Both the position numbers and the translations under genes were made by a program. From a virus: a stretch of 64,000 nucleotides of DNA. The stretch's first letter is position 1. Each line of letters begins with the position of its first letter. Positions 1 to 16,348 of the stretch are shown piece after piece. Under the pieces are notes generated by a model, which had not been told where the DNA came from, searched no databases, and saw only the letters and a list, made by a program, of their open reading frames with translations. The DNA is taken from IMG/VR virus record IMGVR_UViG_3300045988_010396, positions 37,395-101,394 of that record. The stretch is one strand, 5' to 3'.

Positions 1-43
1 GGGACTAACTCTCACCTTGCCTTTGATAACATTCCTATATGAT

Positions 44-226
44 ATGAAGAAGAACATTCTCATTGCGGTATTGGCACTAGTGGTGCTAGTACTTACAGGT
101 GTTACTCTCTACCAAAGTGAGAGACTGAGTGCTGCCAAGGCTTATATCAATGACCTTGAGGCAGACTATCCTGACTACATTGATACCACTTCTGGAGGTG
201 ATGCATACTCAGAGTGGTATAACTAA
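44..226 (+). CDS. Small membrane protein (paralog A1). The track start at 17 is TTG; the ATG at 44 gives MKKNILIAVLALVVLVLTG...
   Basis: N-terminal hydrophobic helix. The C-terminal motif AKAYINDLExDxPxYIDTTSGGDAYSxWY is shared with ORF 1882-2073. Confidence 0.5.
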   Translation: MKKNILIAVLALVVLVLTGVTLYQSERLSAAKAYINDLEADYPDYIDTTSGGDAYSEWYN

Positions 227-293
227 CTCCTTCCTTACTTTTGACATTATTAACTTTGAACCTTATGGTGCTTAGGTCAACCATTATTCAGTT

Positions 294-575
294 ATGAATC
301 TGTTTTCTAATCTTAGGGTGTATGGTGGTAAGTGGTCTGAGAAGTCATCCAGACACTTCACTCAGGAAGAGCGGGCTCTTGTAGAGAAGGCTCAGGTAGT
401 TGAGAGTCAGTATGGCTCATCATGCTGCTTCTTTATGAAGAACGGCACTACCATGTATGTTCCTATGTCTCAGGATGCTAAGTCTGAGGTAGGTGACATG
501 GTAGACCTGTCTTCTGCTGAGATTGTCACTCTGGAGAAGCAGGGTGAGCATGACATTCAGCGCATCAGAGGATAA
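294..575 (+). CDS. Hypothetical protein (paralog B1), 93 aa
   Basis: About 75% identical to ORF 953-1234 (MNLFSxLRVYGGKW...CCFFM.NGTTMYVPMS...EIVTLEKQGExDIQRIRG). Confidence 0.55.
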   Translation: MNLFSNLRVYGGKWSEKSSRHFTQEERALVEKAQVVESQYGSSCCFFMKNGTTMYVPMSQDAKSEVGDMVDLSSAEIVTLEKQGEHDIQRIRG

Positions 576-591
576 TAGTCCTCATAGTCAT

Positions 592-627
592 CAGACCTCA
601 TAGGAGAGTGGGAGTAATCCTGCTCTC
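592..627 (+). terminator. Rho-independent terminator
   Basis: Hairpin GGAGAG...CTCTCC followed by TTTATTTTT immediately after the stop of ORF 294-575. Confidence 0.55.
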
Positions 628-952
628 CTTTATTTTTGAATGAATAATAAACAACAACATATGATTAACAAGCTATTATATCATCCAGACAGTGACTAAC
701 TAGGAAACAACAACATATGATTATATAGCAGAGGCACTAACTCCTCCCTTGATACTGGCTATACTATTTATTAGCTGACAGTAGAAGTAATAGTAGTAAC
801 TAACAACAGCAAGATATGATATATTCAAGTATATCTTTAGAGCAAGGTCACTAACTCCCCCCTTGCCCTTGCCTTGCATAGCTAATGCTAATAGTAGTAG
901 CTGTGCATGTGCACAAATAACATTTATCACATAACATTTAACATTTAGCACT

Positions 953-1234
953 ATGAACTTGTTTTCTAGTCTGAGAGTGTATGGAGGCAAATGGGCTGAA
1001 AAGGCTTCCAGAAAGTTCACACAAGAAGAGCTGGCTCTTGTAACTAAGGCCCAGGTGGTGGATTCCCAGTATGGTAACTCTTGCTGTTTCTTCATGGCAA
1101 ATGGTACAACTATGTATGTACCAATGAGCACTGATGCAAAGAGTGGGGTGGGTGACATCATCAACCTCAATGAGGCAGAGATAGTTACCTTAGAGAAGCA
1201 GGGTGAAAATGACATCCAGAGAATCCGAGGATAA
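953..1234 (+). CDS. Hypothetical protein (paralog B2), 93 aa
   Basis: Paralog of 294-575; preceded by the motif TAACATTTAACATTT 6 nt upstream of the ATG. Confidence 0.55.
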   Translation: MNLFSSLRVYGGKWAEKASRKFTQEELALVTKAQVVDSQYGNSCCFFMANGTTMYVPMSTDAKSGVGDIINLNEAEIVTLEKQGENDIQRIRG

Positions 1235-1502
1235 TCTGTAGTAAAGAGTGTGTACCACACATAGTGGTGCATAACTCTTTTTACTGTCTTTGCAGCAACA
1301 ACAAAGTGGAGTGACTTATATAGTTACTCTACTTTGCTTGTCATTTTTCAAGTCAGTTATTCATTAAAAAGAGTTAAAAATGACACTAGGAGAATGGGTA
1401 GGAGTAATCCTATGTATTGCACTTGTAATAGGTGCAATATGGGATATATGTACAGGATATAGCTCCAAAAATTAACACACAATACACACAAAATTTAAGA
1501 AA

Positions 1503-1889
1503 ATGAAAAAATATGCTGTACAAAGAATTGATAATGGTCAAGTAATTGATTATGTTGATTCGCCAGAACAAGCTTCATACTGGCTACAAATGAGTAATCC
1601 AAAGTTTGAATTGGTAGCTACTAATACCTCTAGTATCATAGTTACTTATACAGAACTTGAAGGACCTAACGGATATGGACACCAAGAAGAATCTTTTGCT
1701 ACTTACGGAGGAATTGTAAGATGTATCATTAATCTATATAAATGGGCAAACCAAGAAGCTTCTGTGTGGGGGCCTAATCCAATGGATATTAAAGGCTACC
1801 TTAAAAAATGCAATGTTATAGTAAATGGGCGAGACAAGACTGAGTGGTTTTTAGCTCAAGTAGATAAATTAAAGATAATGTATGTGTAA
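1503..1889 (+). CDS. Hypothetical protein, 128 aa
   Basis: Intact ORF in tight array; overlaps the next gene by 8 nt. Confidence 0.45.
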   Translation: MKKYAVQRIDNGQVIDYVDSPEQASYWLQMSNPKFELVATNTSSIIVTYTELEGPNGYGHQEESFATYGGIVRCIINLYKWANQEASVWGPNPMDIKGYLKKCNVIVNGRDKTEWFLAQVDKLKIMYV

Positions 1890-2073
1890 GAATATAACCA
1901 TTGTAGTACTCCTACTAATAGTAGGAGTACTTATAGGTATTTGTATCTACCAAAATGATACTATCAGTAGAGCTAAGGCATATATCAATGACTTGGAGAA
2001 TGACTTCCCTGAGTATATTGATACTACCTCAGGTGGTGATGCTTATAGTGACTGGTATGAAAGAGTGAACTAA
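1882..2073 (+). CDS. Small membrane protein (paralog A2)
   Basis: Same C-terminal motif as 44-226 (RAKAYINDLENDFPEYIDTTSGGDAYSDWY); N-terminal transmembrane helix. Confidence 0.5.
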   Translation: MCKNITIVVLLLIVGVLIGICIYQNDTISRAKAYINDLENDFPEYIDTTSGGDAYSDWYERVN

Positions 2074-2713
2074 AGCACTAATATTAAGAGTAATATACCT
2101 CAAGATAGATAGGGACAAATAGGACTCACCTAAACGAAAATCCGCTGTTGAGTGAAAGATTGATGTGAAGGTCAGACAAGTAAACTCATGGAGTTGAAAG
2201 CAGCACCGAGGGACTGGGAATCGAGTAGACAAGACACAGTGCATTAGTAGAAAGGGGACTTGACAGTAAAGGTACTAAAACCTGGTAAGTGTAACGAGTT
2301 GAGGTTTCTATTAGGAGATGATACCAATGGGTGTTGAATAGCATATATTTAGTATCCCTAATAATATTATAATGTATCTATTAAACTCCGTATATCTTAA
2401 AAAGTACTGGAGGTTACTGACTTTAATAATAACAGTGCTTAAGGGGATTAGCATATATTGGTTAATGCAATAGTTATTCTATGCAAATAGGCTCAAATCC
2501 TATATCACCTACTAATAAAATAACCACAAAATATACAACAATGAAAAGAAAGAGATTAAAAGGGGCATTTGTATGTTCCGTGACAGATTCTAGGCTCACT
2601 ATAAGAGTCTGTAAAACTAAGAGGTACTTCATCATGTTCTGGGGTGAGCTTTATGAGATTAAATTCTCTGAAGTCAAGATGTATGAGGCACACAACATTA
2701 AGGTAATAGTGAG

Positions 2714-3040
2714 ATGAGAAAATATGTTGTCTATGACACCACAGGCAATCCTGTTGGTGTGTCATTCAAAACTATTAGAGAGGCTGAAGAGTATAAAGCC
2801 ATCAACAGGAGATTTGATTGGGTTGTGAAGCTGGTAGACATAAACATATGGAGGGAGAGCACTCCTAAACAAAGGAATGCTCTTACCTTCTGTGAGAAGG
2901 TCTTGGATATTCAATTTGAAGGCAACAGGCATGATTTCTATGAAGTGTCTGACTTCTTGTCTGAGTATCTGGAAGAGGCTAAACAAACAGCAATAGAATT
3001 ATCATGTATGTATTCATCTTATATGTGGAACAATGATTAA
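2714..3040 (+). CDS. Hypothetical protein, 108 aa
   Basis: ORF with coding-like composition; no recognisable motif. Confidence 0.4.
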   Translation: MRKYVVYDTTGNPVGVSFKTIREAEEYKAINRRFDWVVKLVDINIWRESTPKQRNALTFCEKVLDIQFEGNRHDFYEVSDFLSEYLEEAKQTAIELSCMYSSYMWNND

Positions 3041-3245
3041 AGTAAGTAAATGCGTGTTACTGTACGCAACAATCATATGCAGCATTCTGTTTATAACAGG
3101 TGGTGACGCAATAATGTCAGTAGGTATTAAATACTTTCTGATATTTGGGTTAGTTTGTGTTGCTCTAATTTATCTATCTTATAAATTAATATCCAAGAAG
3201 GAGTTTGATTCCTTCACGGGATTTAACATTATAGATAAATTGTAG
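3033..3245 (+). CDS. Small membrane protein, 70 aa
   Basis: Two hydrophobic helices; start overlaps the previous ORF. Confidence 0.4.
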   Translation: MIKVSKCVLLYATIICSILFITGGDAIMSVGIKYFLIFGLVCVALIYLSYKLISKKEFDSFTGFNIIDKL

Positions 3246-3319
3246 TTGTAGATTGGGCTTTTCTGGTTCGTGAGAATAGGAAAAGACTTTTATAGTAAAC
3301 AATTAAAAACAGATTAAAT

Positions 3320-3613
3320 ATGAGAATTATAGTAGTTTTTATATTTGCTTGCATTAGTCTTATAGCCAGTGCACAGCAATTCAAGCGTGAGGGTAATACC
3401 TTTGTGCAGGATACCACAAAAACTTTCAGAAAGTCTGAGGGTAAGGAGACCAAATACACCTACAAGGATAAGAATAATAAGGTATATCCTATATTCATTA
3501 CCTCTTCTGGAGCTGTGTATATAAACAAAATATCAGCAAAGACAGGTAAGGAATACAGAATGTACCTTCCCAAGGGTATCAAGGAAGCTATTGCCAAGGA
3601 GATAAAGCAATGA
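3320..3613 (+). CDS. Secreted small protein, 97 aa
   Basis: N-terminal signal peptide MRIIVVFIFACISLIASAQQ; Lys-rich mature part. Confidence 0.45.
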   Translation: MRIIVVFIFACISLIASAQQFKREGNTFVQDTTKTFRKSEGKETKYTYKDKNNKVYPIFITSSGAVYINKISAKTGKEYRMYLPKGIKEAIAKEIKQ

Positions 3614-3705
3614 TTATAACAATATTTGCTTGGCTATTTGTAATAGTTTGGGTATTAAAAATGAAAGACCAATGATAATACTTGGAATTTTAGAGATGAT
3701 ATTCT

Positions 3706-4002
3706 ATGGTTTTGGTACATTCTTGTTTTGTATCTTGCTATGGCATGTCTTTTTTAACGATAAATAAGATGTCTGAGCTTCTTGTTACAATCCTTAACAA
3801 ACTAGGTTTGGGTAAAGGATGTAGAGTATACAACATATCTAACATGAAAAGATACATGTATGATGTGTTTGGAGACTCTATAAAGGTAGATATAATATCT
3901 CCTATATCTGTCAGTCTTGAAGCAGGTAGTAATAAAATCATTATCACTTATGAGATAGTGAACAGTACGATAAAGAGTCTGACTATTAAAGAGGTGTTAT
4001 AA
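3706..4002 (+). CDS. Hypothetical protein, 98 aa
   Basis: ORF only. Confidence 0.3.
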   Translation: MVLVHSCFVSCYGMSFLTINKMSELLVTILNKLGLGKGCRVYNISNMKRYMYDVFGDSIKVDIISPISVSLEAGSNKIIITYEIVNSTIKSLTIKEVL

Positions 4003-4009
4003 ATGGCTC

Positions 4010-4095
4010 ACTCCCTTAGCTCAGTTGGTTCCGCAAGGCTTGAGAGCATCGGACTTTTAATCCGAGGGTCATGGGTTCGAGTCCCATAGGGAGTA
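4010..4095 (+). tRNA. tRNA-Lys(UUU) with a 12-nt insertion in the D-loop
   Basis: Acceptor ACTCCCT/AGGGAGT 7 bp; D-stem GCTC/GAGC; anticodon stem TCGGA/TCCGA with loop CTTTTAA; T-arm ATGGG-TTCGAGT-CCCAT. The extra CCGCAAGGCTTG lies between the D-loop GGTT and the 3' D-stem. Confidence 0.7.
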
Positions 4096-4112
4096 CTATT
4101 CATTTCATTCAA

Positions 4113-4432
4113 GGGGCTGTATTTGGTCTTGACTGGTGGCTACTTGGTATGAGGACATGCAGAGACTGATGGAGAGACATCAAAACTTTAGGTGGCAACA
4201 GAATTTCTGCACCTGTAGCTCTTGCTGCTTAAGCAATCTACTGAGTTAGTCACTGACTTGGAAACAGAATAGTGACAAGACAAGATTTCTTGCATAGATA
4301 AATGCAAGTGGTGGACTATGTTGACAATCCAGTCAACCCCAGCAGAGAACCAACTGCATAATAAAGTGGTAAGCATGTGTAATCCTTATATTGAGAGCTA
4401 TTAGGACAGGGGTTCGACTCCCCTCAGCTCCA
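4113..4432 (+). ncRNA. ssrA: tmRNA (SsrA); tag ORF ...GGNRISAPVALAA*
   Basis: 5' end GGGGCTGTATTTGGTCTTGACTGG against E. coli GGGGCTGATTCTGGATTCGACGGG. 3' end GGACAGGGGTTCGACTCCCCTCAGCTCCA against GGACGCGGGTTCAACTCCCGCCAGCTCCA. Includes the G3:U wobble alanine identity pair. Internal reading frame ggc aac aga att tct gca cct gta gct ctt gct gct taa. Confidence 0.8.
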
Positions 4433-4508
4433 GAGGCACGTTGTTAGATACTTCCACGTAGTGTGCCTTGGGTTAAAAGCTAGATTCTAACAAAAAAAAA
4501 AAGATTAT

Positions 4509-4811
4509 ATGTTAATAACAGAAAGAGCAAAAAGGAAAATAAATACTTTATTAGATAGTACTAATGATTGTATAAACTATCCTAAAACTAATAAAGATGG
4601 TTATGGGGATATTCAAGAGATTGTGGAGGGTAAAAAGCTCCACATGTTAGCTCATAGAGTATCTTATCAGTTATATACAGGAGAAGACATATCACCTGAT
4701 GATATAATATGTCATAGATGTGATAATCCTGCTTGTATTAATCCTAGACATTTGTTCAGAGGCACTCACTCAGATAATATTAAAGATAAGGTTTGTACCC
4801 ATTATTCATAA
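4509..4811 (+). CDS. HNH homing endonuclease
   Basis: Motif [14 protein letters not shown] and downstream HSDN (HNH fold). Confidence 0.7.
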
Positions 4812-5107
4812 GCGGTCGTAGCATAATTAGCGGTGACGCGGTAGTGGAATCCAATTACGACTATATTGTTTTCAAGAACTGGTGGTCATCAGGAAGATAC
4901 TTTACATGGACTAGAAGCAATGATATGTGGTGTGTTGGATGCTTCTACGGCACGGGCAAGGAGCTAATCGCTAAAGCCTACAAGGACAGCAAGGTGAGTG
5001 GTAGAGAGTATGAGAGAATAGTCAAATATGTAGAGCGGATTAAGAGAGACAGCAAGCCATCTTTGTGGCGGAGAATACTGTTTAATCTTAGCAAGCTCTG
5101 CAAATAG
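4793..5107 (+). CDS. Hypothetical protein, 104 aa
   Basis: ORF overlapping the HNH gene end; may be its C-terminal extension in another frame. Confidence 0.3.
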
Positions 5108-5129
5108 TATAAAATTAAACTACATCAGA

Positions 5130-5411
5130 ATGGCAAAGATTGTAAACAATGACAAGGGGTTCAAGGTAATCAGCTTGTCAACAGAGGATGCAGCATCTCT
5201 GGGCTTTGGTATAGATGGCTCAGGTACATGTATATGTATGCATTGTAATAAGGGGTGCCGTAGTGGAGACATCTATTACATTGCAGTGCTTCATGACACT
5301 ATGTGCAAGAAGTGCTATGAGAGGTGGATTAAGTCTGCTACAAGGTATGCAGAAGATATACCCATTGAAAATAGGAACTTCAACCACTATAAGGAGTGGC
5401 TGTGTCTGTGA
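5130..5411 (+). CDS. Cys-rich small protein (zinc-ribbon-like)
   Basis: CICMHCNKGC ... CKKCYERW cysteine pairs. Confidence 0.4.
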   Translation: MAKIVNNDKGFKVISLSTEDAASLGFGIDGSGTCICMHCNKGCRSGDIYYIAVLHDTMCKKCYERWIKSATRYAEDIPIENRNFNHYKEWLCL

Positions 5412-5611
5412 TTATTCTTATATTGTAGTGTACTATGTATTTCAAAGAAGATGAACCAATAAGAGTGCTTATGACAACACCTCTTCCTGACCCCTACTTA
5501 TAAGGGCAGTTATTGGTACTAAAGTTAAATTTATGTTAAAGGTAGGTCATTTGTTTGGTAATATCAAACTTTTGACTTACCTTTGCGGTGTTCAATTAAA
5601 CAACAGAGATT

Positions 5612-7035
5612 ATGTGTTCAAAAGTTAATCCTAACCTAAAGCCTGTACCTAAGTTTGAAAACACTCAACTGGCAGGTGGTTATGGTGCATTAGCTGCCAG
5701 GCAGTCCAATGTAGCATTGCTTAGAAGAGCAGTGCTGGCTAATCTCCTTTGAGAGGATGTAGCATATATGGATGGTGAGAGAGTAGCCAATGAAATACAG
5801 AGGTTAATACCTCTGTGCCCTGCTGAGGATGTATATAATATAGCTCTTGAAGCTAGGTTAATGCAGAAACTGAGGCATACTCCATTGTTTATAGCAGTGG
5901 AAATGTGCAAGTATCCTGAACATAAGTTATTTGTTAAGGACTTGCTACCAAAGATAGTTACAAGAGCTGATATGCTCACTGACTTCTTGGCTATATATAT
6001 ATATATTGGAAGGATGGCAAGCATCCTATCTGTAACCAAGCTAAGAAGGGTCTTGCTCTAGCCTTCCACAACTTCAATGAGTATAAGTTGGCTAAGTATG
6101 ACAGAGATGCTGCTATCAAGCTCAGGGATGTGATGTTCTTGGTACATGCAAAGCCTAGAAACCAGTATGAGCAGGAGTTGTTCAATAAGGTAGCTGAGAG
6201 AACTCTCACACCACCTGAGACATGGGAAGTCATGTTAAGTAGAGGTGATGACAAGAAGGCTACTTGGACTAAGCTCATTACAGAGGGTAAGATTGGAGGT
6301 CTGGCTATGTTGAGAAACATAGCTAATATGCAGAAGGCCAATGTGGATAGAAGGACTATCCAAGATGGCCTTAAGACACTGAGAAGCTCAATGCTATTAC
6401 CTCTTGACTTCTGGAAGGCTGCTAGAATGAACCCAGCATTTGAGAGAGACATTGAGGATGCTATGATAGAGGCATATAAGAACTTACCTAAACTTCCTGG
6501 CAAGACACTATTTATAGTGGATGTATCAGGTTCTATGGGTTTTTTAACCTCTGGTAGCTCTCAGTTCAACAGGATGGACCAAGCTTGTGCTATGGCTATC
6601 TTGGCAGCTAATCAGTGTGAGGACTATGAGCTTGTAGCTACAGCAGGTAATGATGATTCTAAAATAAGTGCCTCAGAGTGGATTGAATATCCAAAGAGAG
6701 GTTTTGCTCTTGCTCCACAGATAATGGATACCAGGCATAGGATTAGTGGTGGAGGTATATTCACCAGGCAGTGCCTAGAGTGGTGTAAGGATAAGTTCAA
6801 AGACAAGAAGTTTGATAGAATTATCATATTCTCAGACTCTCAAGACTGTGACTATCCTGAGAAGAGAGTACCTAAACCATTTGGTACATATAACTATATT
6901 GTAGATGTATCTGCTCATACAAGAGGAGTGAACTACAAGGGTGTATGGACTGCTGAGGTTTCAGGCTGGTCAGAACATTTCTTGACTTATATTGCAGCTC
7001 TTGAGGGATTGCAGAATAAGTTTGAGGAGCAATAA
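5612..7035 (+). pseudogene. rsr: Ro60/Rsr-like protein (TROVE domain plus vWA), interrupted by an in-frame TGA at 5750-5752 and a frameshift at the TA tract 5992-6006
   Basis: N-terminus VNPNLKPVPKFENTQLAGGYG resembles human Ro60 VNQMQPLNEKQIANSQDGY. Other TROVE matches: HTPLFIAVEMC to QEPMLFALAIC; KLRDVMFLVHAKP to KDLLRLSHLKP; GGLAMLRNIANMQKA to MPLTALLRNLGKMTA. The vWA MIDAS motif is FIVDVSGSM. The track ORF 6088 starts at TTG; homology continues upstream to the TA tract. Confidence 0.65.
5992..6006. repeat. (TA)7T dinucleotide tract inside the rsr-like gene
   Basis: tatatatatatatat. Loss of one TA unit fuses the frame-2 ORF 5768-6061 with the frame-1 ORF ending at 7035. Confidence 0.8.
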
Positions 7036-7042
7036 ATAAAAA

Positions 7043-7116
7043 GAGCCTATAAGTGAAAGTCAGAGTTACTTCAATATTGGGATATTTTGACACTCTGACA
7101 AAGTGTTCTATAGGCT
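7043..7116 (+). repeat. Free-standing copy A of the conserved AGTG...TTACTTCAA structured element (nested hairpins)
   Basis: Outer stem AGCCTATA/TATAGGCT and inner stem GTCAGAGT/ACTCTGAC around TACTTCAAT. The same core motif as the tRNA intervening sequences. Confidence 0.5.
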
Positions 7117-7187
7117 TTTAAGCTCTTCTATAGTTAGAAAGAGTTTCGAGACCCGATTGCCTTTGATGCATCTCGGGTCTTGCGATG

Positions 7188-7321
7188 GAGGAGTTAGCTC
7201 AGAGGTTAGAGCAGTTAAACAAGACACTCTACATACTGTTCTCTAGTAATAGTAGTGATTTGTAGAGATACTTCAAGCACTTTCATTGCACAGGTCATAG
7301 GTTCGAGTCCTATACTCCTCC
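7188..7321 (+). tRNA. tRNA-Glu(UUC) gene carrying a 61-nt intervening sequence (about 7216-7276) in the anticodon stem
   Basis: Acceptor GAGGAGT/ACTCCTC; D-arm GCTC-AGAGGTTA-GAGC; T-arm ATAGG-TTCGAGT-CCTAT. The anticodon loop CTTTCAT and 3' stem TGCAC get a perfect 5' stem GTGCA only if 7216-7276 is removed. Confidence 0.65.
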
Positions 7322-7385
7322 CAACTTTGTTGGATTTTGTGTGTTTTACCTCACTGGTATGTGAATATAGGTGAGGTTTTTACAA

Positions 7386-7524
7386 GGCGGAGTAGCTAAA
7401 TGGTTAAAGCAACACCCTTACAGAATTTATCTGGTAAAGCAGTAGTGGGTTGTCAGGGTTACTTCAAGGTTATAGCATTAGTTTTGGGTGCTAAAGAATG
7501 TAAGTTCGAGTCTTACCTCCGCCA
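7386..7524 (+). tRNA. tRNA-Pro(UGG) gene carrying a 66-nt intervening sequence (7407-7472 or 7412-7477) in the D-arm or at the 26/27 junction
   Basis: Acceptor GGCGGAG/CTCCGCC; D-stem GCT(A); intact anticodon arm TTAGT-TTTGGGT-GCTAA at 7478-7494; T-arm GTAAG-TTCGAGT-CTTAC. Confidence 0.65.
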
Positions 7525-7733
7525 CTTATTTACCTACCTCACCTAGCATAGTTATACAGGATAAGACCCATTATGATGGAGCACCGATGAAACTATCCTA
7601 GCCACGCTGGTATTGCTATTCAGTGAGTGAGAAAATGAATAGCCTCGAAGCATAGTGGAGATAACGTCAAGGAGTACCATCCTTAGCAGCTATGTAAAAT
7701 TGGTTGACAATCTGGAAAGACAGATAATAAAAT

Positions 7734-7861
7734 GGGGGAGTAGCTAAATTGGTTACTATACTCTTGCTGTTATTCTCTGGAAGCAGTAGTGTTAGCAAAG
7801 AGTTACTTCAAGCATTCATCTGGTAAATGAAAGTATATTGGTTCGAGTCCAATCTCCCCCG
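7734..7861 (+). tRNA. tRNA-Thr(GGU) gene carrying a 56-nt intervening sequence (about 7755-7810) in the D-loop before the 3' D-stem
   Basis: Acceptor GGGGGAG/CTCCCCC. The D-stem 5' GCTA and D-loop AATTGGTT are separated from the 3' D-stem AGC(A) by the insert. Anticodon arm TTCAT-CTGGTAA-ATGAA; T-arm ATTGG-TTCGAGT-CCAAT. Confidence 0.65.
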
Positions 7862-7865
7862 CAAA

Positions 7866-7999
7866 ATAGAGGTTAGTGAATGTTACAGTTACTTCAATTA
7901 TGATTAGTATATTGGTTTAACATTCAATCAAGAAAGGAGTAGATTTATTCACAACTTTTTTAACTCAACCCAACTGTGGCAGAGTTGTTCTACCTCTAT
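7866..7999 (+). repeat. Decayed copy E of the conserved element plus a degenerate tRNA-Thr 3' half
   Basis: TAGTGAAT...GTTACTTCAAT followed by GTATATTGGTTTAACATTCAAT, which resembles the T-arm of the 7734-7861 tRNA. Flanked by ATAGAGGT/ACCTCTAT. Confidence 0.4.
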
Positions 8000-8063
8000 T
8001 AAGAGGGCTATGGTAGTAATACTATAGTCCTCTTTCTTTTTGAAATTGTGTTAGCTACATATA

Positions 8064-8480
8064 TTGTATTACTTAAAAAAAAAAAGTATGGCAAAAACAA
8101 ATGAAAGTGTCGGGAGAGTCGAGGACTTGAAGGCACAAGTGAAGGACCTTCTAGGCTTAGATGCCATGATGGATGAGAGTGTGACTAAGGAAATGAAGGA
8201 CGAACTTATCGCTCAGGCTAAGAACAAAGGTGATAAGCACATCGAAGAGGTGATGGACACCATTGAGAAGGCACTTGAGAAGGTTAAGGACCCTGAGTTC
8301 AAGGCTATCATCGCCTCTATCATATGGACTAAGTGTCCTATAGGTATGCAGAAGTCCTGCATTGAGTTTCACAACAAGCTGTTGTGTGTTGCGATGGCTG
8401 CTCATATGGATAAGCAGACTAAGGGTAATTCCCTTGCAGGTCTTGCACTGCTGTCAACTGTACTTGGAGATAAGAGATAA
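8064..8480 (+). CDS. Hypothetical protein (likely start at the ATG at 8088, MAKTNES...)
   Basis: ORF following an A11 tract; Lys/Glu-rich. Confidence 0.45.
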   Translation: MYYLKKKSMAKTNESVGRVEDLKAQVKDLLGLDAMMDESVTKEMKDELIAQAKNKGDKHIEEVMDTIEKALEKVKDPEFKAIIASIIWTKCPIGMQKSCIEFHNKLLCVAMAAHMDKQTKGNSLAGLALLSTVLGDKR

Positions 8481-8486
8481 ACTGAA

Positions 8487-8858
8487 ATGAGTGAAATCAA
8501 GGTGAGTGTCAGTATTACACTACAAGGTGGTGTAATGCTGACCCAAGCTGAGGCTGAACAGCTTGAGAAGAACAAAGTAGGCACTGGTTATGACCTGACT
8601 AGAGTCAAGGTTAAGGACAAGGAGGGTAATGCTGATGTCCTCAACGTGAGAACTAGGAAGTCCAGAACTGCCACACAGACCATAAGCATGTACAAAGAGG
8701 CTTATGAGTACATGACAAGTAAGGATAGCTGTCCTACCAGTATCAAGCAGTATGTATGGGCTAAGATGAAGCCAGTACAGAGATTGGAGGTACATCTTAA
8801 CTTGGTATGTAAGCACCTCGGGGGCATCTCCTACACCTATAAGGTATTTGATGATTGA
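8487..8858 (+). CDS. Hypothetical protein, 123 aa
   Basis: ORF 7 nt after the previous stop. Confidence 0.45.
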   Translation: MSEIKVSVSITLQGGVMLTQAEAEQLEKNKVGTGYDLTRVKVKDKEGNADVLNVRTRKSRTATQTISMYKEAYEYMTSKDSCPTSIKQYVWAKMKPVQRLEVHLNLVCKHLGGISYTYKVFDD

Positions 8859-9014
8859 GTAATAACAACATCACTTATACTGTAGAAGTATGAGGTTTCT
8901 TGTGGTATTAGTGTCCTTATTGGGAGTCATACTCCTGATAAGGACATTTAATAGGTATGGCCCTAATCTTGACTTGGCACAGTCAGGCAGGAAGTACGTT
9001 AAACTATTTGAGAT

Positions 9015-9734
9015 ATGATAGAATTTGGACTTAAGAGAGTTACAAATGGTAAGAAATCAAGGTTTCTTAAGAAGTTTCCTCGTAAGAGAATACTCCATAG
9101 GGGGGATGAGAAAGCTGCCTCTTGGTTTAGAAACAACTGGATAGATGATAACTACATATACTTTAAGGGTAACTTGGATAGATTCCTTAAGTCCAATGTA
9201 GGAAGACCAGTTGATAAGGTATTTTCAGAATTCCTTGACAGGTGTAATAAATCTGCCAGTGTATATAATCTGAGGAAGTGGTTCTATGACATGTTTAAGG
9301 AAAAGTCAGAGATTGGCTGGTCAGGTGGTTTCTATATCACCAATGGCATATTGAACTACAAGAAGAGAACCAAGAAACCTAAGTACAAGTCTTACATCAG
9401 CATGTGTGACTATAACAGGCAGTTAATACCTGATATAGGTGCTCTGTGCAGACAATGTGAGTCAAGTCATCTCAAGCAACCTGTTGGAGAGTTCAGGCTT
9501 GCCTATAAGGGCCAGAAGAGGGTTTACTTAGTGGAGAGGGAGATATGGTTATCAGACCTAAAGCTACAGTCTCACTATAGGTTATGCTCTATTTATGGAG
9601 TGGGCAAGGGAGTATCCAAGAGTATATTGGATTATCAAGACAAGATGTACAAGGCTACCTATGTATTATGTGACAATCTGGGTTGGTCTGAACTACCTGA
9701 GTTTGTATTTATTACCAAGATTGAAGAGAAATGA
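9015..9734 (+). CDS. Hypothetical protein, 239 aa
   Basis: Intact ORF; basic N-terminus. Confidence 0.45.
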   Translation: MIEFGLKRVTNGKKSRFLKKFPRKRILHRGDEKAASWFRNNWIDDNYIYFKGNLDRFLKSNVGRPVDKVFSEFLDRCNKSASVYNLRKWFYDMFKEKSEIGWSGGFYITNGILNYKKRTKKPKYKSYISMCDYNRQLIPDIGALCRQCESSHLKQPVGEFRLAYKGQKRVYLVEREIWLSDLKLQSHYRLCSIYGVGKGVSKSILDYQDKMYKATYVLCDNLGWSELPEFVFITKIEEK

Positions 9735-9913
9735 AGAAAGGTCTTATACTAGTAGCATTAGTATTATTGTTCATAGTGTTTATGGCTATACTGACAGGTT
9801 GTCTTAGCCTAATATCAGCACCTAACACTATAGAGAACATATTGGGAGTGGTGATACTAGCTGCCACTATGATAACAACGATAAATCTAATCAAGAGTCA
9901 AATTCAAAAATAA
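9731..9913 (+). CDS. Small membrane protein, 60 aa
   Basis: Two hydrophobic helices; 4-nt overlap with the upstream gene. Confidence 0.4.
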   Translation: MKKGLILVALVLLFIVFMAILTGCLSLISAPNTIENILGVVILAATMITTINLIKSQIQK

Positions 9914-9951
9914 GCTGTAAGTGTTTAACAAATTTAATAATTGAAAGAAAA

Positions 9952-10737
9952 GTGAAAAGTAAATTGATTTTGGGACTTCTGTTCTCGTTTATGATGTTCT
10001 CCATGACATCCTGTATGGAGAAGGTAGATGCTGGTTGTGAGGGCATCAAGGTGAATCTGTATGGTAGCGATAAGGGAGTAGATGATGCTTCCCTAGTAAC
10101 TGGTATTGTATGGTACAACCCCTGGACCACTACAGTATATGAGTACCCCACCTATGTACAGACCATTGACTATGAGCCATTCACTATCAATGCTAAGGAT
10201 GGTTCTGAGTTCACTGTAGACCCTACTGTGTCATTGAAGATTATTGATGGCAAATCACCTGCTGTCTTCAAGAAGTACAGAAAAGAATTGAATGAGGTAA
10301 TCAAGGGTACTCTGTATAACTATGTGAAGGATGCCTTTAGAATCCAGTTGAACAAGTTCACCACTGATGACATTGTGAGCAAGAGGGATAGCATTGAGAG
10401 TGCTATTGAGAGATATTTGACTCAAGCACTTGCCAAAGAGAACTTCCAATTGGAACAGCTCACTTCTGGATTGAAGTACCCCCAAACCATTGTAGAGTCT
10501 GTGAATGCTAAGAATAAGGCTATACAGCAGGCCATGCAGGTAGAGAATGAGGTCAAGGTAGCAGAGGCCCAAGCCAAGAAGCTCATTGTAGCTGCTGAGG
10601 CAGAGAAGAAAGCCAATGAATTAAGACAACAGGCTCTTACTCCAGCTATTCTTGAGAAGATGTGGATTGAGAAATGGGATGGTAAGCTTCCTGTGTATGG
10701 TCAAGTGCCTACTATATTCAAGGATATTAGTAAGTAA
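9952..10737 (+). CDS. SPFH/band-7 (prohibitin/HflC-like) domain lipoprotein
   Basis: Signal peptide with a Cys (..FSMTSC). Central SPFH-like block followed by a coiled coil: VKVAEAQAKKLIVAAEAEKKANELRQQ. Confidence 0.5.
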   Translation: MKSKLILGLLFSFMMFSMTSCMEKVDAGCEGIKVNLYGSDKGVDDASLVTGIVWYNPWTTTVYEYPTYVQTIDYEPFTINAKDGSEFTVDPTVSLKIIDGKSPAVFKKYRKELNEVIKGTLYNYVKDAFRIQLNKFTTDDIVSKRDSIESAIERYLTQALAKENFQLEQLTSGLKYPQTIVESVNAKNKAIQQAMQVENEVKVAEAQAKKLIVAAEAEKKANELRQQALTPAILEKMWIEKWDGKLPVYGQVPTIFKDISK

Positions 10738-10740
10738 GCT

Positions 10741-11061
10741 ATGGGATGGATTATATTAGGTATTATGTTCCTTGCAGTGACTGTATGGTCACTCAAGGGC
10801 ACTACCATTGTTGAGTACTGCTATAAGGACAAAGTGGATGAACACCATGTTCCTGTGTGGGCACTGCTTATAGCTTTTGTACTTTACTGTGTTCCTTTTA
10901 TAGGCATATTGGTATTCATAGCATATCATGTATGGTTCATTGTATTTGCCTGTACAAAACCACATAATGGGTATGAGTACTATATTATGGAACTGTCAAA
11001 CAAGAACATACTGCATAGGATTCTTGGTGCAATAGTACGTGTGCTTAATAAAACAATCTAG
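10741..11061 (+). CDS. Membrane protein, 106 aa
   Basis: Three predicted transmembrane helices. Confidence 0.4.
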   Translation: MGWIILGIMFLAVTVWSLKGTTIVEYCYKDKVDEHHVPVWALLIAFVLYCVPFIGILVFIAYHVWFIVFACTKPHNGYEYYIMELSNKNILHRILGAIVRVLNKTI

Positions 11062-11533
11062 TATGAAACAAAAGATATTTAACTATATACTACTGTCTTG
11101 GATGGTAATCCTTACAGGATATATTGCCTTAGAGAGTGGGAAAGCCCCTCCTGATGCTGAGTTTGAGCTAAAACTCAATGATAGGGAGATTATGAAAGAC
11201 TTGGAAGCTAATGTTACCAATATGCTTGCGGTGTGTGAATACTATGGAGTAAAACATCCTAGGGTAGTCACAGCTCAAGCTATATTGGAGTCAGGTAACT
11301 TTGAGTCCAAATTATTTAAGGAGTATAATAATCCCTTTGGTCTTTACAATAGTAAGAAGAAGGATTACTTCAAGTTCAAGCATTGGACAGATGCTGTAGC
11401 AGCCTATATCTCTATGGTGGAGTATAGGTATGTTGGAGGTGATTATTATAGATTCCTTGAGGAGCTTCCCTATGCCCAAGACAATAGATATATAGATAAA
11501 GTTAGAATAATAGAAAGTAATTTGCCCCCGTAG
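11039..11533 (+). CDS. Peptidoglycan hydrolase (FlgJ-type glucosaminidase family endolysin) with N-terminal membrane anchor
   Basis: Motif AQAILESGNFESKLF...NPFGL matches the AQAALESGWG glucosaminidase signature. Confidence 0.6.
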   Translation: MCLIKQSSMKQKIFNYILLSWMVILTGYIALESGKAPPDAEFELKLNDREIMKDLEANVTNMLAVCEYYGVKHPRVVTAQAILESGNFESKLFKEYNNPFGLYNSKKKDYFKFKHWTDAVAAYISMVEYRYVGGDYYRFLEELPYAQDNRYIDKVRIIESNLPP

Positions 11534-11535
11534 AT

Positions 11536-12720
11536 ATGAATAGAGAAGATGCAAGAGAAGAGATATTAAGATTGACCAATAAGGCAATACTCTTGGAACT
11601 CCCAACTGGCTATGGTAAGTCATTGATGGGTATGGACTTATGCTTGAGAGATAATCCTCAAAGAATTCTTATAGTAGTACCTAGAGTTGTTCTTATACAG
11701 AACTGGAAGAATGAGTTCAAGAAGTGGGGAAATGATGAATATCTGGATAGGGTTACATTCAGTACCTATGCTGGATTACATAAAGTTCCTAATATCCGAA
11801 GGCACTTTAACTGTGTCATACTGGATGAGGCTCATCATGTGACCCCTAGAGTCCAAGACTTGCTCACCTATATAACATATGACAAGATAATCATGTTGTC
11901 AGCTACAGTCAAGAGAGACCTCAAGTATGACTTGAAGGATATGTTTCCTGACTTGTATTGTTATAAGGTGAACATGAAGGAAGCCATAGAGAATGAAGTC
12001 CTTCCTGACCCTATGGTCTATCTGTTACCTCTTACTCTTGATAGCAGATATAATTCAGAAAAGATAGTAAAGCATAGTAGTGGCAGAACCTCAGTAACTT
12101 GCTCCTATAAGGATAGATGGAACTATATAAGGGACAAGAATATCAAATTGACTATTGAGTGTACTCAGCTCCAGAAGAGTATTGAATTAGACAATGAGAT
12201 AAGTTTCTGGAAAGATAAGTACATGAGAACTAGGAATGAGATATTCAAGAACAAGTGGTTACATCTTGCAGGTCAGAGGTTGAAATGGTTATCAAACCTA
12301 AAGAACCCCATTATGCTTAATCTGTTAGCTCTATTCAAGAATGAAAGAGTATTGACTTTCTGTAACTCCATAGACCAGACTATTGAACTGGGAAGGAACT
12401 GTATCAACAGTAAGAACAAGGATGCTGTCAAGGTGCTTGAATCCTTTAATAAGGGAGAAATAAGGCACATCACCGCTTGTAATATGCTCAATGAGGGCAT
12501 GAACTTGTCTAACTGTAGGATAGGTATATATGCCAATCTCAACAGTTCTGAGATAATCATCAAACAGAGACTAGGTAGAATACTTAGACATGAGAAACCA
12601 GTGATAGTGATACCTTTCTATAAGGGTACTAGGGAAGAGGAGTTAGTTGCTAAGATGCTTGAGGATTATAATCCTCAGTTAATTCATACAATAGAAAACA
12701 TAACTGATATAAAGATATGA
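11536..12720 (+). CDS. SF2 DEAD/DEAH-box family helicase
   Basis: Walker A PTGYGKS, motif II ILDEAHH, motif III LSAT. Confidence 0.7.
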   Translation: MNREDAREEILRLTNKAILLELPTGYGKSLMGMDLCLRDNPQRILIVVPRVVLIQNWKNEFKKWGNDEYLDRVTFSTYAGLHKVPNIRRHFNCVILDEAHHVTPRVQDLLTYITYDKIIMLSATVKRDLKYDLKDMFPDLYCYKVNMKEAIENEVLPDPMVYLLPLTLDSRYNSEKIVKHSSGRTSVTCSYKDRWNYIRDKNIKLTIECTQLQKSIELDNEISFWKDKYMRTRNEIFKNKWLHLAGQRLKWLSNLKNPIMLNLLALFKNERVLTFCNSIDQTIELGRNCINSKNKDAVKVLESFNKGEIRHITACNMLNEGMNLSNCRIGIYANLNSSEIIIKQRLGRILRHEKPVIVIPFYKGTREEELVAKMLEDYNPQLIHTIENITDIKI

Positions 12721-13118
12721 GAAATAAAGTTTTGATTCAGAAGTCCAGCTTCCATGTGGATGAGGCAAACAAGGTGGTTGTATGCACACTTGAGTGTGAT
12801 ATGCAGCTTGATAAGCATCCTGCTTGGAATTCTATTGATTGTAGAATGTTCAAGAATATCCCCTACGCAAACTGGTATGGCAAGTTCACTGTCAAAGCTA
12901 AAGCAAGGTGCAATGCCACAGACACATTCAGTGTTGAGACTGGCAAGAGAATTGCTGAGAGCAGGGCTAAAGCCAAGATGTTCAACGTCTCCAGCAGAAT
13001 ATATAAGCTTTGTTCAGATGCTCTGACAAAGTTGGCAAAGGAATGTAGTAACTCATCTGTAGCTTGTGAGCAGGCCATGATGATTGAGAATGACCATGTT
13101 CTTGAGTTAACTAGATAA
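12717..13118 (+). CDS. Hypothetical protein, 133 aa
   Basis: ORF only. Confidence 0.4.
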   Translation: MRNKVLIQKSSFHVDEANKVVVCTLECDMQLDKHPAWNSIDCRMFKNIPYANWYGKFTVKAKARCNATDTFSVETGKRIAESRAKAKMFNVSSRIYKLCSDALTKLAKECSNSSVACEQAMMIENDHVLELTR

Positions 13119-13121
13119 GGT

Positions 13122-13718: not shown

Positions 13719-13719
13719 T

Positions 13720-14943: not shown

Positions 14944-14949
14944 AAGCAA

Positions 14950-15480: not shown

Positions 15481-15690
15481 CATCTGCCATTATCTATCTA
15501 ATTGCTGGAACACCCTAAAGACAACTGAACTACAAAGTAATTGGTAACAATAAGCTTGAATGTTTGAAAATCAGTTGTATTCTTAGTGATGGAGAAATGG
15601 GCAATCAGCAGCCAAGGGACTCTACGAGTTCAAGGTTCATCGACTATCCCCTGTTGTGGGGGAGTACATTTATAAAGTAATCAATTATAT

Positions 15691-16305: not shown

Positions 16306-16348
16306 TGGAAACATTAAGGAGGTATAGTAGAGTGATTAACTATAATAG

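What the first reader, a model, noticed from the sequence alone, without database searches (positions are those of the whole stretch)
5612..7035. Phage-encoded Ro60/Rsr (TROVE plus vWA) gene, broken by an in-frame TGA and a (TA)7 slippage-prone frameshift, directly upstream of the tRNA and tRNA-like RNA array
Three consecutive reading frames are all homologous to Ro60. These are 5612-5752 (47 aa, MCSKVNPNLKP...), 5768-6061 and 6001/6088-7035. The last holds the TROVE C-terminus and the vWA MIDAS motif FIVDVSGSM. They are separated by a TGA at 5750-5752 and by a -1/+2 frameshift that maps onto the tatatatatatatat tract at 5992-6006. Deleting one TA unit joins ...DFLAIYIYI to WKDGKHPICNQAKKGLALAF..., which matches the Ro60 WYNEKGGMALALAV region. 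In bacteria and mycobacteriophages rsr is typically followed by Y RNAs or tRNA-like YrlA RNAs. Here the gene is followed by tRNA-shaped RNAs with unusual structured inserts. The gene may be phase-variable, pseudogenised, or miscalled by homopolymer or dinucleotide sequencing error. The genomic context, Ro60 next to tRNA-mimic RNAs in a phage with its own tmRNA, is rare.
Basis: partly seen in the sequence, partly recalled or inferred. Interest (0 to 1): 0.78.

Follow-up and report, generated by a model that had tools for sequence, protein, structure and literature searches.

The report
Dead Ro60 gene beside tRNA mimics
A crAss-like gut phage carries a recently broken copy of its Ro60-type RNA-binding gene, and just downstream are three conserved tRNA look-alikes, each with an extra folded module, that are probably the protein's so far undescribed RNA partners.

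Summary
Window 5612-7035 is the Ro60/TROVE+vWA gene of a crAss001-like Bacteroides phage (the crAss001 gp96 family). It is split by TGG->TGA at codon 47 and by +8 nt in a TA tract: (TA)3T in intact relatives, (TA)7T here.

It is a real, recent pseudogene. It is not recoding, phase variation or a sequencing error:
- The same allele occurs in ENA, Logan and IMG assemblies.
- It is the only disrupted gene among about 40 compared with crAss001.
- TGA is a normal stop in this genome.
- No relative varies in TA number.
- The window lineage has only six private substitutions, although the family has dN/dS of about 0.1.

At least six independent knock-outs occur in relatives: two further point lesions (Q63*, a 1-nt frameshift) and three deletions. 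One more relative shares TGA47. The gene is therefore conditionally dispensable.

Downstream (7041-7926) are three true cloverleaf RNAs. Each carries a covarying two-helix module ending in GUUACUUCAA. Two stand-alone copies of the AGUG...GUUACUUCAA sequence motif flank them. The module occurs only next to TROVE, both in this window and in crAss001. The array does not meet the YrlA definition. Its anticodons differ among near-identical strains. I read it as a new variant of a Ro60-Y RNA system, with binding untested.

The parts
5550..5585 (+). Candidate Bacteroides-type promoter of the TROVE gene: TTTG (-33) and TACCTTTG (TAnnTTTG, -7), 20 nt apart
   Evidence: Read directly from the sequence. 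Consensus recalled from established knowledge of Bacteroides promoters. Inferred, not tested.
5612..5752 (+). TROVE fragment 1: codons 1-46, then the nonsense codon TGA (5750-5752). Intact relatives have TGG (Trp47), which is invariant.
   Evidence: G5752A is private to the window lineage among the seven genes compared; L068 shares it.
5753..6061 (+). TROVE fragment 2, same frame as fragment 1. It runs out of frame after the TA tract and ends at TAG 6059-6061.
   Evidence: The 97-aa product with its out-of-frame tail is on record from ENA, Logan and JGI/IMG.
5992..6006 (+). (TA)7T tract. Eight bases (four TA units) are extra relative to (TA)3T in all intact relatives, giving a +2/-1 frameshift.
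6007..7035 (+). TROVE fragment 3 in the shifted frame (open from 5983): C-terminal HEAT repeats plus the vWA domain. MIDAS motif DVSGS at 6520-6534.
7041..7119 (+). Stand-alone hairpin carrying the conserved AGUG-N-GUUACUUCAA sequence motif (7052-7074). It lies directly after the TROVE stop and is followed by a U run.
   Evidence: The 5' half is removed by the deletion allele in L070-L074.
7148..7181 (+). Stable hairpin just upstream of unit A (in the fold of 7140-7187: z = -3.6, -19.6 kcal/mol)
7188..7321 (+). Unit A: a tRNA-like RNA with a normal acceptor stem, D arm and T arm. The 5-bp anticodon stem is interrupted after two pairs by the module (7222-7278). Anticodon loop CUUUCAU at 7280-7286.
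   Evidence: Rfam tRNA 43.4 bits. Module model 66.2 bits..
7349..7381 (+). Hairpin with conserved loop GGUAUGUGAAUAUA plus U5, terminator-like, between units A and B
   Evidence: The same loop with different stems is seen in other loci in the output.
7386..7524 (+). Unit B: a tRNA-Pro(UGG)-like cloverleaf with the module (7410-7469) inserted in the D-loop region. Anticodon arm 7478-7494.
   Evidence: ARAGORN, Rfam, module model 53.7 bits, covariation.
7525..7733 (+). Conserved non-coding spacer with several hairpins. A sigma70-like promoter match (TTGACA-18-TAAAAT) lies at 7704-7733.
7734..7861 (+). Unit C: a tRNA-Thr(GGU)-like cloverleaf with the module (7756-7813) in the D loop. Anticodon arm 7815-7831.
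   Evidence: (68.4 bits).
7877..7926 (+). Second stand-alone hairpin carrying the AGUG-N-GUUACUUCAA sequence motif (7875-7897)
8001..8034 (+). Intrinsic terminator (15-bp stem plus T run) that closes the RNA array

Best explanation
Window 5612-7035 is the early-expressed Ro60/TROVE+vWA gene of a crAss001-like Bacteroides phage (orthologue of crAss001 gp96). In this genome it is a genuine, recently formed pseudogene.

A TGG->TGA nonsense mutation at codon 47 most likely came first. The same TGA sits on a second haplotype that still has the normal TA tract. A four-unit expansion of a TA tract near codon 130 then added a frameshift.

The gene is under strong purifying selection in most relatives, yet it is knocked out repeatedly and independently in natural populations. 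It therefore behaves as a conditionally dispensable accessory gene. I infer that it is useful in some hosts and costly in others, for example as a trigger of a host defence.

In intact genomes the protein most likely works as other Ro60 proteins do: as a ring-shaped RNA-binding protein in a ribonucleoprotein. Its RNA partners would be the three tRNA-like RNAs encoded immediately downstream, with the conserved two-helix module plus GUUACUUCAA tail serving as the protein-binding platform.

Shown: gene identity, the lesions, that the allele is real, recurrent loss, RNA structure, and co-location of the module with TROVE.
Inferred: protein-RNA binding, the biological role, and the reason for recurrent loss.
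For: Identity of the gene:
- Full-length matches to PHROG 850 and to Thermus phage Ro60 9KOP/9L5Y.
- Pfam TROVE above its cutoff.
- An AF2 model of the 95%-identical intact homologue P0001 (pLDDT 82) has all 13 best PDB matches among Ro60 structures, E 7e-16 to 5e-9.
- More than 1600 homologues were found, the best 120 mostly 469-472 aa. crAss001 gp96 is annotated 'TROVE domain-containing protein'.

The allele is real:
- Window 1-16062 equals ENA scaffold L059 (99.99%) and overlaps Logan contig L060 at 100%.
- The frameshift-specific 97-aa product is recorded from JGI/IMG, Logan and ENA.

The lesions are specific to this gene:
- Of about 40 crAss001 proteins with a homologue here, only gp96 is disrupted. 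gp84 is split, but by a group I intron.
- TGA ends 11 of 43 long ORFs.

The inactivation is recent:
- Pairwise dN/dS is mostly 0.08-0.15 (0.23 between the two broken alleles).
- The window lineage has six private substitutions: A12V, W47* and four synonymous.

Order of events:
- L068 has TGA47 with a wild-type (TA)3T tract.

Recurrent loss in relatives:
- Q63* in L063.
- About 1.2 kb deleted in L065.
- 1361 nt deleted (window 5728-7088) in L070-L074, eight contigs in total.
- 101 nt deleted in L041 and a 1-nt frameshift in L030.

The RNAs:
- Module: 95% of cells paired, against 27-53% when the partners are slid; 68 double-change cells against 22 in shuffles (0 of 500 shuffles reach the observed value).
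- Whole cloverleaf plus module: 97.7% paired, 18 of 30 pairs with compensatory changes.
- The module model hits only 7222-7278, 7410-7469 and 7756-7813 in the 64-kb window, and only the gp95-gp96 gap in the 100 kb of crAss001 searched.
Against: - No reads were inspected, so heterogeneity within the sample is unknown. The ENA, Logan and IMG assemblies may derive from one sample.
- Nothing here shows that the protein binds these RNAs.
- The RNAs lack the GNCGAA motif of bacterial Y RNAs.
- The RNAs are retained essentially intact in genomes where TROVE is dead or deleted, so they may function without it.
- TROVE homologues at about 63% identity on other viral contigs have no such module nearby.
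- TM-scores of the model to solved Ro60 structures are only 0.35-0.45.
Confidence: 0.8

Rival explanations
1. Assembly or sequencing artefact: the gene is intact in the real phage, and the TGA and the extra TA units are errors.
For: Dinucleotide tracts can be miscalled, and no reads were available. The ENA, Logan and IMG assemblies may share one read set.
Against: - Three assemblies made by different pipelines give the identical allele.
- ORFs of 2159, 1372 and 2215 aa are uninterrupted, as are the other crAss001 homologues compared.
- An 8-nt gain is not a typical short-read error.
- TGA47 is seen independently in SRR31227379.
Confidence: 0.05
2. The gene is still expressed, through TGA read as Trp (stop-codon reassignment, as in some crAss-like phages) plus a programmed frameshift or slippage on the TA tract.
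For: TGA replaces an invariant Trp codon. The phage encodes unusual tRNA-like RNAs. Stop-codon reassignment is known in some Crassvirales (established knowledge).
Against: - TGA terminates 11 of 43 long ORFs, and reading TGA as sense hardly lengthens the large genes.
- No tRNA or tRNA-like unit has anticodon UCA.
- UAUAUAU is not an X XXY YYZ slippery site.
- Every relative has the short in-frame tract.
- Relatives lose the gene by plain deletions.
Confidence: 0.03
3. Phase-variable contingency gene: the TA tract switches the gene on and off by slippage.
For: Seven TA units is a length at which slippage becomes appreciable.
Against: - All other loci examined carry a fixed-length tract; those with the TATATAT sequence all have three units, and others have diverged sequences of the same length.
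- A collection-wide pattern scan allowing 0-24 extra bases found only wild-type length.
- The upstream TGA keeps the gene off whatever the tract length.
Confidence: 0.04
4. The downstream RNAs are ordinary phage tRNAs that have acquired an insertion element or an unusual expansion. They function in translation or as substitutes for cleaved host tRNAs, independently of TROVE. Co-location only reflects a shared early transcription unit.
For: - Units B and C have canonical anticodon arms, T arms and acceptor stems with covariation.
- Anticodons change between strains as if different decoding or decoy specificities were selected.
- The array persists when TROVE is dead or deleted.
- The phage has Pnkp-like RNA-repair genes.
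Against: - The module is found nowhere else in the window, and none of the strong matches in the searched crAss001 sequence lie outside the gp95-gp96 gap, although crAss001 has a separate array of 24 normal tRNAs.
- Two stand-alone copies of the AGUG...GUUACUUCAA motif lie outside any tRNA.
- The inserts sit at three different positions of the tRNA body, yet all keep the same module.
- Removing the module does not restore a canonical D loop in unit B.
- tRNA-like partners encoded next to Ro60 genes are the rule in bacteria and other phages.
Confidence: 0.3

Closest known systems
crAss001 gp96 (TROVE domain-containing protein, early gene of Kehishuvirus primarius, Steigviridae)
   Same: Orthologue: about 79% amino-acid identity, the same neighbours, and the same ~900-nt non-coding gap downstream. 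Reported as an early transcript and 'a possible ribonucleoprotein component' (PMC8375218).
   Different: The window copy is inactivated by a nonsense codon and a frameshift. The downstream RNAs are not annotated in the crAss001 record, and I found no paper describing them.
Bacterial and mycobacteriophage Ro60 (Rsr) with YrlA/Y RNAs (Chen et al. 2014, PMC4201824)
   Same: A Ro60-type protein gene with tRNA-mimicking ncRNAs encoded next to it on the same strand. The RNAs have tRNA-like D and T arms.
   Different: In YrlA the 5' and 3' ends form the Ro-binding stem, which carries a GNCGAAN0-1G motif, and the tRNA-like part is internal. Here the ends form a true acceptor stem, an anticodon arm is present, the extra module is inserted near the D arm or anticodon stem, and the GNCGAA motif is absent.
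Thermus phage phiLo phiRo60 with Yrl1/Yrl2 (PDB 9KOP, 9L5Y; PMC12135203)
   Same: The closest solved structure by sequence (E 4e-13, full length) and by fold (E 7e-16). It is a phage Ro60 with adjacent ncRNAs. It binds host PNPase and attenuates it.
   Different: 22% identity. Its Yrl RNAs lie upstream of the gene, are stem-bulge-stem Y-like RNAs with a CGAA motif, and are not cloverleaf tRNAs.
Phage tRNA arrays that offset host anticodon nucleases
   Same: Phage-encoded tRNA-shaped RNAs whose anticodon region evolves quickly. Pnkp-type RNA-repair genes are in the same genome.
   Different: Known cases are ordinary-length tRNAs. None carries a conserved 55-60-nt structured insert or sits next to a Ro60 gene. 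This comparison rests on my own knowledge and was not tested here.

Membership tests
Ro60 / TROVE family (protein) | Match to the TROVE profile above the curated threshold | tested here: met
   PF05731, 41.6 bits (cutoff 23) on the conceptually joined protein; 39.2 bits on fragment 3 alone. Only profile positions 273-331 and 273-348 of 442 are matched. PHROG 850 matches over the full length, E 5e-33.
Ro60 / TROVE family (protein) | HEAT-repeat ring closed by a C-terminal vWA domain (Ro60 fold) | tested here: met
   AF2 model of the intact homologue P0001 (95% identical): pLDDT 82, helical repeats followed by an alpha/beta domain. The 13 best PDB matches are all Ro60 (phage, Xenopus, Deinococcus, human), probability 1.00, about 490-520 aligned columns. 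TM-scores are only 0.35-0.45.
Ro60 / TROVE family (protein) | MIDAS motif DxSxS in the vWA domain | tested here: met
   DVSGS at 6520-6534. D, S and S are invariant in 13 and in 35 homologues. The vWA_Ro60 profile hit is below its cutoff (19-20 bits against 27.7).
Ro60 / TROVE family (protein) | Uninterrupted reading frame able to give the full protein | tested here: not met
   TGA at codon 47 and a +8-nt frameshift. The window copy is a pseudogene of this family.
Ro60 / TROVE family (protein) | Binds Y-type ncRNA or misfolded RNA | not testable with these tools
   Needs a pull-down or EMSA with crAss001 gp96.
YrlA / bacterial Y RNA (downstream RNAs) | Encoded close to a Ro60 gene on the same strand | tested here: met
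   The array at 7041-7926 starts 6 nt after the stop codon, on the same strand. The arrangement is conserved in about 50 related loci.
YrlA / bacterial Y RNA (downstream RNAs) | GNCGAAN0-1G motif near the 5' end (presumed Rsr-binding site) | tested here: not met
   By reading the sequence, the only CGAA I noted in 7036-8060 is CCUCGAAG in the spacer, and it fails the pattern. It is CAAA in L007.
YrlA / bacterial Y RNA (downstream RNAs) | 5' and 3' ends pair to form the protein-binding stem, with the tRNA-like D/T module internal | tested here: not met
   The ends form a 7-bp acceptor stem with compensatory changes (100% paired), and an anticodon arm is present.
YrlA / bacterial Y RNA (downstream RNAs) | tRNA-like D and T arms | tested here: met
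   Rfam tRNA alignments. The T stem is 100% paired, with four of five pairs covarying.
tRNA (downstream RNAs) | Cloverleaf with acceptor, D, anticodon and T stems supported by covariation | tested here: met
   Units B and C: 97.7% of cells paired, 18 of 30 pairs with changes on both sides, slid controls 40-51%.
tRNA (downstream RNAs) | Canonical size (about 70-90 nt) and a score above the Rfam gathering threshold | tested here: inconclusive
   The units are 128-139 nt. Unit A scores 43.4 bits (above the threshold of 29) only by skipping a 74-nt insert. Units B and C score 26.5 and 27.9, just below it. ARAGORN finds only a partial tRNA-Pro in unit B.
tRNA (downstream RNAs) | Aminoacylated and used in translation | not testable with these tools
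   Needs charged-tRNA sequencing from infected cells.
Phase-variable contingency locus | Repeat-number polymorphism of the tract among relatives | tested here: not met
   All other loci with the tract have (TA)3T or diverged sequences of the same length. The metagenome scan found only wild-type length.
Stop-codon reassignment (TGA=Trp) | Many in-frame TGA codons in conserved genes and a suppressor tRNA(UCA) | tested here: not met
   TGA ends 11 of 43 long ORFs. Large ORFs hardly extend under code 4. No UCA anticodon was found.

The most novel reading that the evidence does not exclude
crAss001-like phages, among the most abundant viruses of the human gut, run a Ro60 ribonucleoprotein whose RNA subunits are a new class. 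These are genuine cloverleaf tRNAs carrying an inserted, covarying two-helix 'handle' (ending in GUUACUUCAA) that docks the Ro60 ring. Their anticodons are under diversifying selection because the particle engages anticodon-specific host factors, such as tRNA-cleaving defence nucleases. Recurrent natural knock-outs of the Ro60 gene, as in this window, would then be escape events in hosts that sense or exploit the protein.
Probability: 0.25. Interest if true: 0.85.

Novelty: new variant of a known kind. Interest (0 to 1): 0.6.

Why it matters
Ro60-Y RNA particles are conserved from bacteria to humans, where Ro60 is a lupus and Sjogren autoantigen. Their roles in phages are barely known. Only one phage Ro60 has been characterised, in 2025, and it blunts host PNPase.

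If the RNAs described here are the partners of the crAss Ro60, three things follow:
- They show a second, independent way of fusing a tRNA shape to a Ro60-binding element.
- crAss001 grows in culture, so the idea can be tested directly.
- The function of an early gene in a dominant family of gut phages would be linked to tRNA biology.

The population pattern is also informative. Strong purifying selection combined with repeated independent knock-outs marks the gene as a conditionally costly accessory. That is the signature expected of genes involved in phage-host conflict.

The window's own copy, taken alone, is simply a young pseudogene.

Tried and rejected
- Global recoding: compared ORF content under alternative stop sets and counted stop usage. 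Rejected.
- Rfam at permissive E-value over 6950-8100: only tRNA matches. No Y RNA, ribozyme or intron family.
- TA-length variants: the first viral-contig pattern was too strict, giving 1 hit. The metagenome scan gave 2 hits, both wild type.
- Genome-contig scan with AGTGN{7,12}GTTACTTCAA: only scattered single hits in unrelated taxa.
- Viral scan for unit C with a free anticodon loop: returned only contigs already known.
- L064's N-terminally short TROVE looked like an HNH insertion, but the cause is a scaffold gap of Ns. Discarded.
- The crAss001 gp55 homologue seemed to contain a stop. It is a normal 68-aa HicA-like ORF.
- Module as an intron: excising it does not restore a canonical D loop in unit B or in the crAss001-type units, and the insertion sites differ between units. 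Not favoured.
- Module as a promoter: its upstream helices covary, so it is transcribed and acts as RNA.
- AGUG/UACU pseudoknot: considered, but both strands are invariant, so it cannot be tested.
- Distant TROVE loci (about 63% identity, L045-L050, L054): no module and no tRNA-like RNA nearby.
- Literature searches for crAss + TROVE/Ro60/Y RNA/tRNA-like found only the annotation-level mentions.
Full report
WHAT THE WINDOW IS. The window has 38% G+C and standard-code ORFs. Its nearest named relatives are Bacteroides phage crAss001 and the PhiCrAssBcn phages (Steigviridae), at about 74% DNA identity over the region. Window 1-16062 matches a 103,245-bp ENA metagenome scaffold (L059) at 99.99%. 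It also overlaps a Logan contig (L060) at 100% identity over that contig's 11.5 kb.

CHECK OF THE OBSERVATION. The three reading frames are as described:
- 5612-5752: 46 codons, then TGA.
- 5768-6061: same frame as the first piece.
- A frame open from 5983 that runs to 7035.
The tract at 5992-6006 is (TA)7T.

The conceptually joined protein matches known families over its full length:
- PHROG 850 'RNA-binding protein' (E 5e-33).
- The Ro60 homologue of Thermus phage phiLo, PDB 9KOP/9L5Y (residues 25-464, E 4e-13).
- Pfam TROVE above its threshold, plus sub-threshold vWA hits.

A database search found more than 1600 homologues. The best are 95-98% identical, and most of those listed are 469-472 aa. 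In alignments the TGA replaces an invariant Trp47. The intact proteins read ...DFLAIYWKDGK....

At DNA level the window differs from intact relatives (L001, L002, L044) by G->A at 5752 and by eight extra bases in the tract: (TA)3T in them, (TA)7T here.

An AlphaFold model of the 95%-identical intact homologue (pLDDT 82) has all 13 top PDB matches among Ro60 proteins from phage, frog, Deinococcus and human (E 7e-16 to 5e-9). TM-scores are modest at 0.35-0.45. The MIDAS residues of DVSGS (6520-6534) are invariant.

IS THE BROKEN ALLELE REAL, AND WHAT KIND OF LESION IS IT? The 97-aa product has an out-of-frame tail that exists only in the frameshifted allele. It is on record from JGI/IMG, Logan and ENA, on four to five contigs.

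The assembly is otherwise clean. Of about 40 crAss001 proteins with a homologue in the window, only gp96 is disrupted. gp84 is split by a group I intron carrying an endonuclease ORF. The ORFs of 2159, 1372 and 2215 aa are uninterrupted.

TGA is not reassigned. It ends 11 of 43 long ORFs, and no UCA anticodon was found.

The TA tract is not a contingency repeat. All other loci examined have the short tract or diverged sequences of the same length, and a metagenome-wide scan allowing 0-24 extra bases found only the wild-type length.

The gene family evolves under strong purifying selection. Pairwise dN/dS is mostly 0.08-0.15, and 0.23 between the two broken alleles. The window lineage has only six private substitutions: A12V, W47* and four synonymous. 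The inactivation is therefore recent.

A second haplotype (L068, SRR31227379) carries the same TGA47 with a normal TA tract. The nonsense mutation therefore most likely came first, and the TA expansion followed in a gene that was already silent.

RECURRENT LOSS. Relatives carry other, independent knock-outs:
- Q63* in L063, the window's closest relative, which has Trp47 and the TA tract intact.
- A deletion of about 1.2 kb from codon 65 in a 104-kb genome, L065.
- A 1361-nt deletion equivalent to window 5728-7088, on eight contigs from at least two run series (SRR268446xx and SRR7619049), L070-L074.
- A 101-nt deletion in L041 and a 1-nt frameshift in L030. These are two of the 51 IMG/VR loci.
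Further short N-terminal fragments (P0123, P0125) were not verified. One apparent case, L064, is a scaffold gap.

The gene is therefore maintained in most genomes but is repeatedly dispensable. All verified lesions fall in the first 130 codons or start there, but part of the sampling was biased toward N-terminal fragments.

THE DOWNSTREAM RNAS. Between the stop codon (7035) and a strong terminator (8001-8034) there is no credible ORF.

Three units have 7-bp acceptor stems, T arms and anticodon arms: 7188-7321, 7386-7524 and 7734-7861. Each carries a 55-60-nt insert. In unit A it sits inside the anticodon stem. In units B and C it sits in the D-loop region.

The inserts share one design:
- helix P1 (CUCU.../...AGAG);
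- a UUCU linker;
- helix P2, five pairs with a bulged U and often a GNRA-like loop;
- UG;
- the 3' strand of P1;
- the invariant tail UUACUUCAA.

On 26 distinct inserts from related phages, 95% of cells are paired, against 27-53% when the partners are slid. There are 68 double-change cells against 22 in shuffles, and none of 500 shuffles reaches the observed value.

On 23 whole units, all six helices (acceptor, D, P1, P2, anticodon, T) are supported. 97.7% of cells are paired, and 18 of 30 pairs show compensatory changes.

A covariance model of the module hits exactly the three inserts and nothing else in the 64-kb window. In the 100 kb of crAss001 sequence searched, its only strong matches are in the unannotated gap between gp95 and gp96.

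Two further copies of the AGUG-N-GUUACUUCAA sequence motif sit in stand-alone hairpins directly after the TROVE stop (7041-7119) and after unit C (7877-7926). These were found by pattern and folding. The structural model does not match them.

The sequence TACTTCAA occurs five times in these 830 nt and four times on the same strand in the other 63 kb.

COMPARISON WITH KNOWN SYSTEMS. Ro60 genes of bacteria and mycobacteriophages are flanked by YrlA-type Y RNAs. Those RNAs mimic tRNA and carry a GNCGAAN0-1G motif in a stem formed by their ends (PMC4201824). The Thermus phage Ro60 binds two adjacent Y-like RNAs and host PNPase (PMC12135203).

The crAss array shares the logic: tRNA mimicry, adjacency to the gene, and the same strand. 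It fails the defining YrlA features. There is no GNCGAA motif, the ends form a real acceptor stem, and an anticodon arm is present.

No Rfam family other than tRNA matches. The full-text searches I ran returned no paper that links crAss-like phages to Y-like or tRNA-like RNAs. The crAss001 literature mentions gp96 only as an early gene and 'a possible ribonucleoprotein component'.

MOST LIKELY MECHANISM.
- Shown: the gene is a Ro60-family member. It is dead in this genome because of two real lesions. Such losses recur. The adjacent RNAs are structured tRNA chimeras whose module is confined to the TROVE neighbourhood.
- Inferred: in intact phages the Ro60 ring binds the module, and the tRNA body provides mimicry or tethering, as in Ro60-Y RNA particles. 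The particle acts early in infection on host RNA or tRNA metabolism.
- More speculative: the gene is lost where it is costly, for instance where a host defence senses it.

Three facts argue for caution. The RNAs persist when TROVE is deleted. Their anticodons vary as if they had a tRNA-type function of their own. More distant TROVE genes lack the module.

VERDICT. The gene family and its presence in crAss001 are known, and the window's copy is a young pseudogene. The more interesting parts appear to be undescribed: the recurrent natural knock-outs, and the conserved module-bearing tRNA-like array with hypervariable anticodons. Taken together this is a new variant of the Ro60-Y RNA theme, pending a binding experiment.

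Noticed in passing
window 7280-7286, 7483-7489, 7820-7826, with the same units in L001-L074: The anticodon loops of the module-bearing tRNA-like units differ between near-identical strains. Unit C has GGU here and AGU, CAU, GAU, GGA or UUU elsewhere. The other ~50 positions of the 3' part compared have only three variable sites across 10 distinct sequences. Unit B shows UGG, GUA, AGG, CAU and UGU, with covarying anticodon stems.
   Followed up: partly
window 7525-7733: A conserved ~205-nt non-coding spacer lies between units B and C. It has several hairpins, and four predicted pairs show compensatory changes in six relatives. It may be a further ncRNA. It contains the pyrimidine-rich run UACCUACCUCACCUAGC.
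   Followed up: partly
window 7349-7381: A hairpin plus U5 has the conserved loop GGUAUGUGAAUAUA. The same loop appears on different, complementary stems upstream of tRNA genes in other crAss001-like loci. It could be a terminator or a processing signal.
   Followed up: partly
window 7429 (unit B); L068 unit C D loop: A window-private C->A at 7429 breaks a C-G pair of helix P2 in unit B. That pair is intact in the other 22 aligned sequences. L068, the other TGA47 haplotype, has G18->A in the GG of unit C's D loop. These are anecdotal hints that the RNAs start to decay once TROVE is dead.
   Followed up: partly
window 4010-4095 and 4113-4435: A tRNA-Lys(UUU) (anticodon read from the Rfam alignment; ARAGORN could not assign it) with a 14-nt insert in its D loop (Rfam 66 bits), apparently a small hairpin by eye, is followed directly by a phage tmRNA (83 bits; ARAGORN tag peptide ASGGLC).
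   Followed up: no
window 14950-16570: A group I intron (Rfam 51 bits, 15380-15761) splits the homologue of crAss001 gp84. The exons lie at 14956-15474 and 16367-16570. The intron region holds a 204-aa ORF (15691-16305). The identical scaffold L059 has weak GIY-YIG and faint NUMOD3 hits for the corresponding ORF.
   Followed up: partly
window 35905-36333 and 38328-38747: The homologues of crAss001 gp60 and gp61 are separate HAD-phosphatase-like and P-loop kinase (AAA_33) genes. They form a split Pnkp-type RNA-end repair pair, which fits a phage involved in tRNA damage and repair.
   Followed up: no
L068 3116-3616; L064 and L065 upstream of TROVE: The TROVE neighbourhood is a hot spot for insertions. 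L068 has an extra 166-aa ORF between TROVE and the RNA array. L064 and L065 have NUMOD4/HNH endonuclease genes immediately upstream.
   Followed up: no
L056 4652-4760 and 4921-5078: Another crAss001-like phage has tRNA-like genes downstream of TROVE with different inserts placed after the D arm, and only a weak match to the module model (29.5 bits, at 4479-4549). Insert-bearing tRNA look-alikes next to TROVE may be more diverse than the module described here.
   Followed up: no
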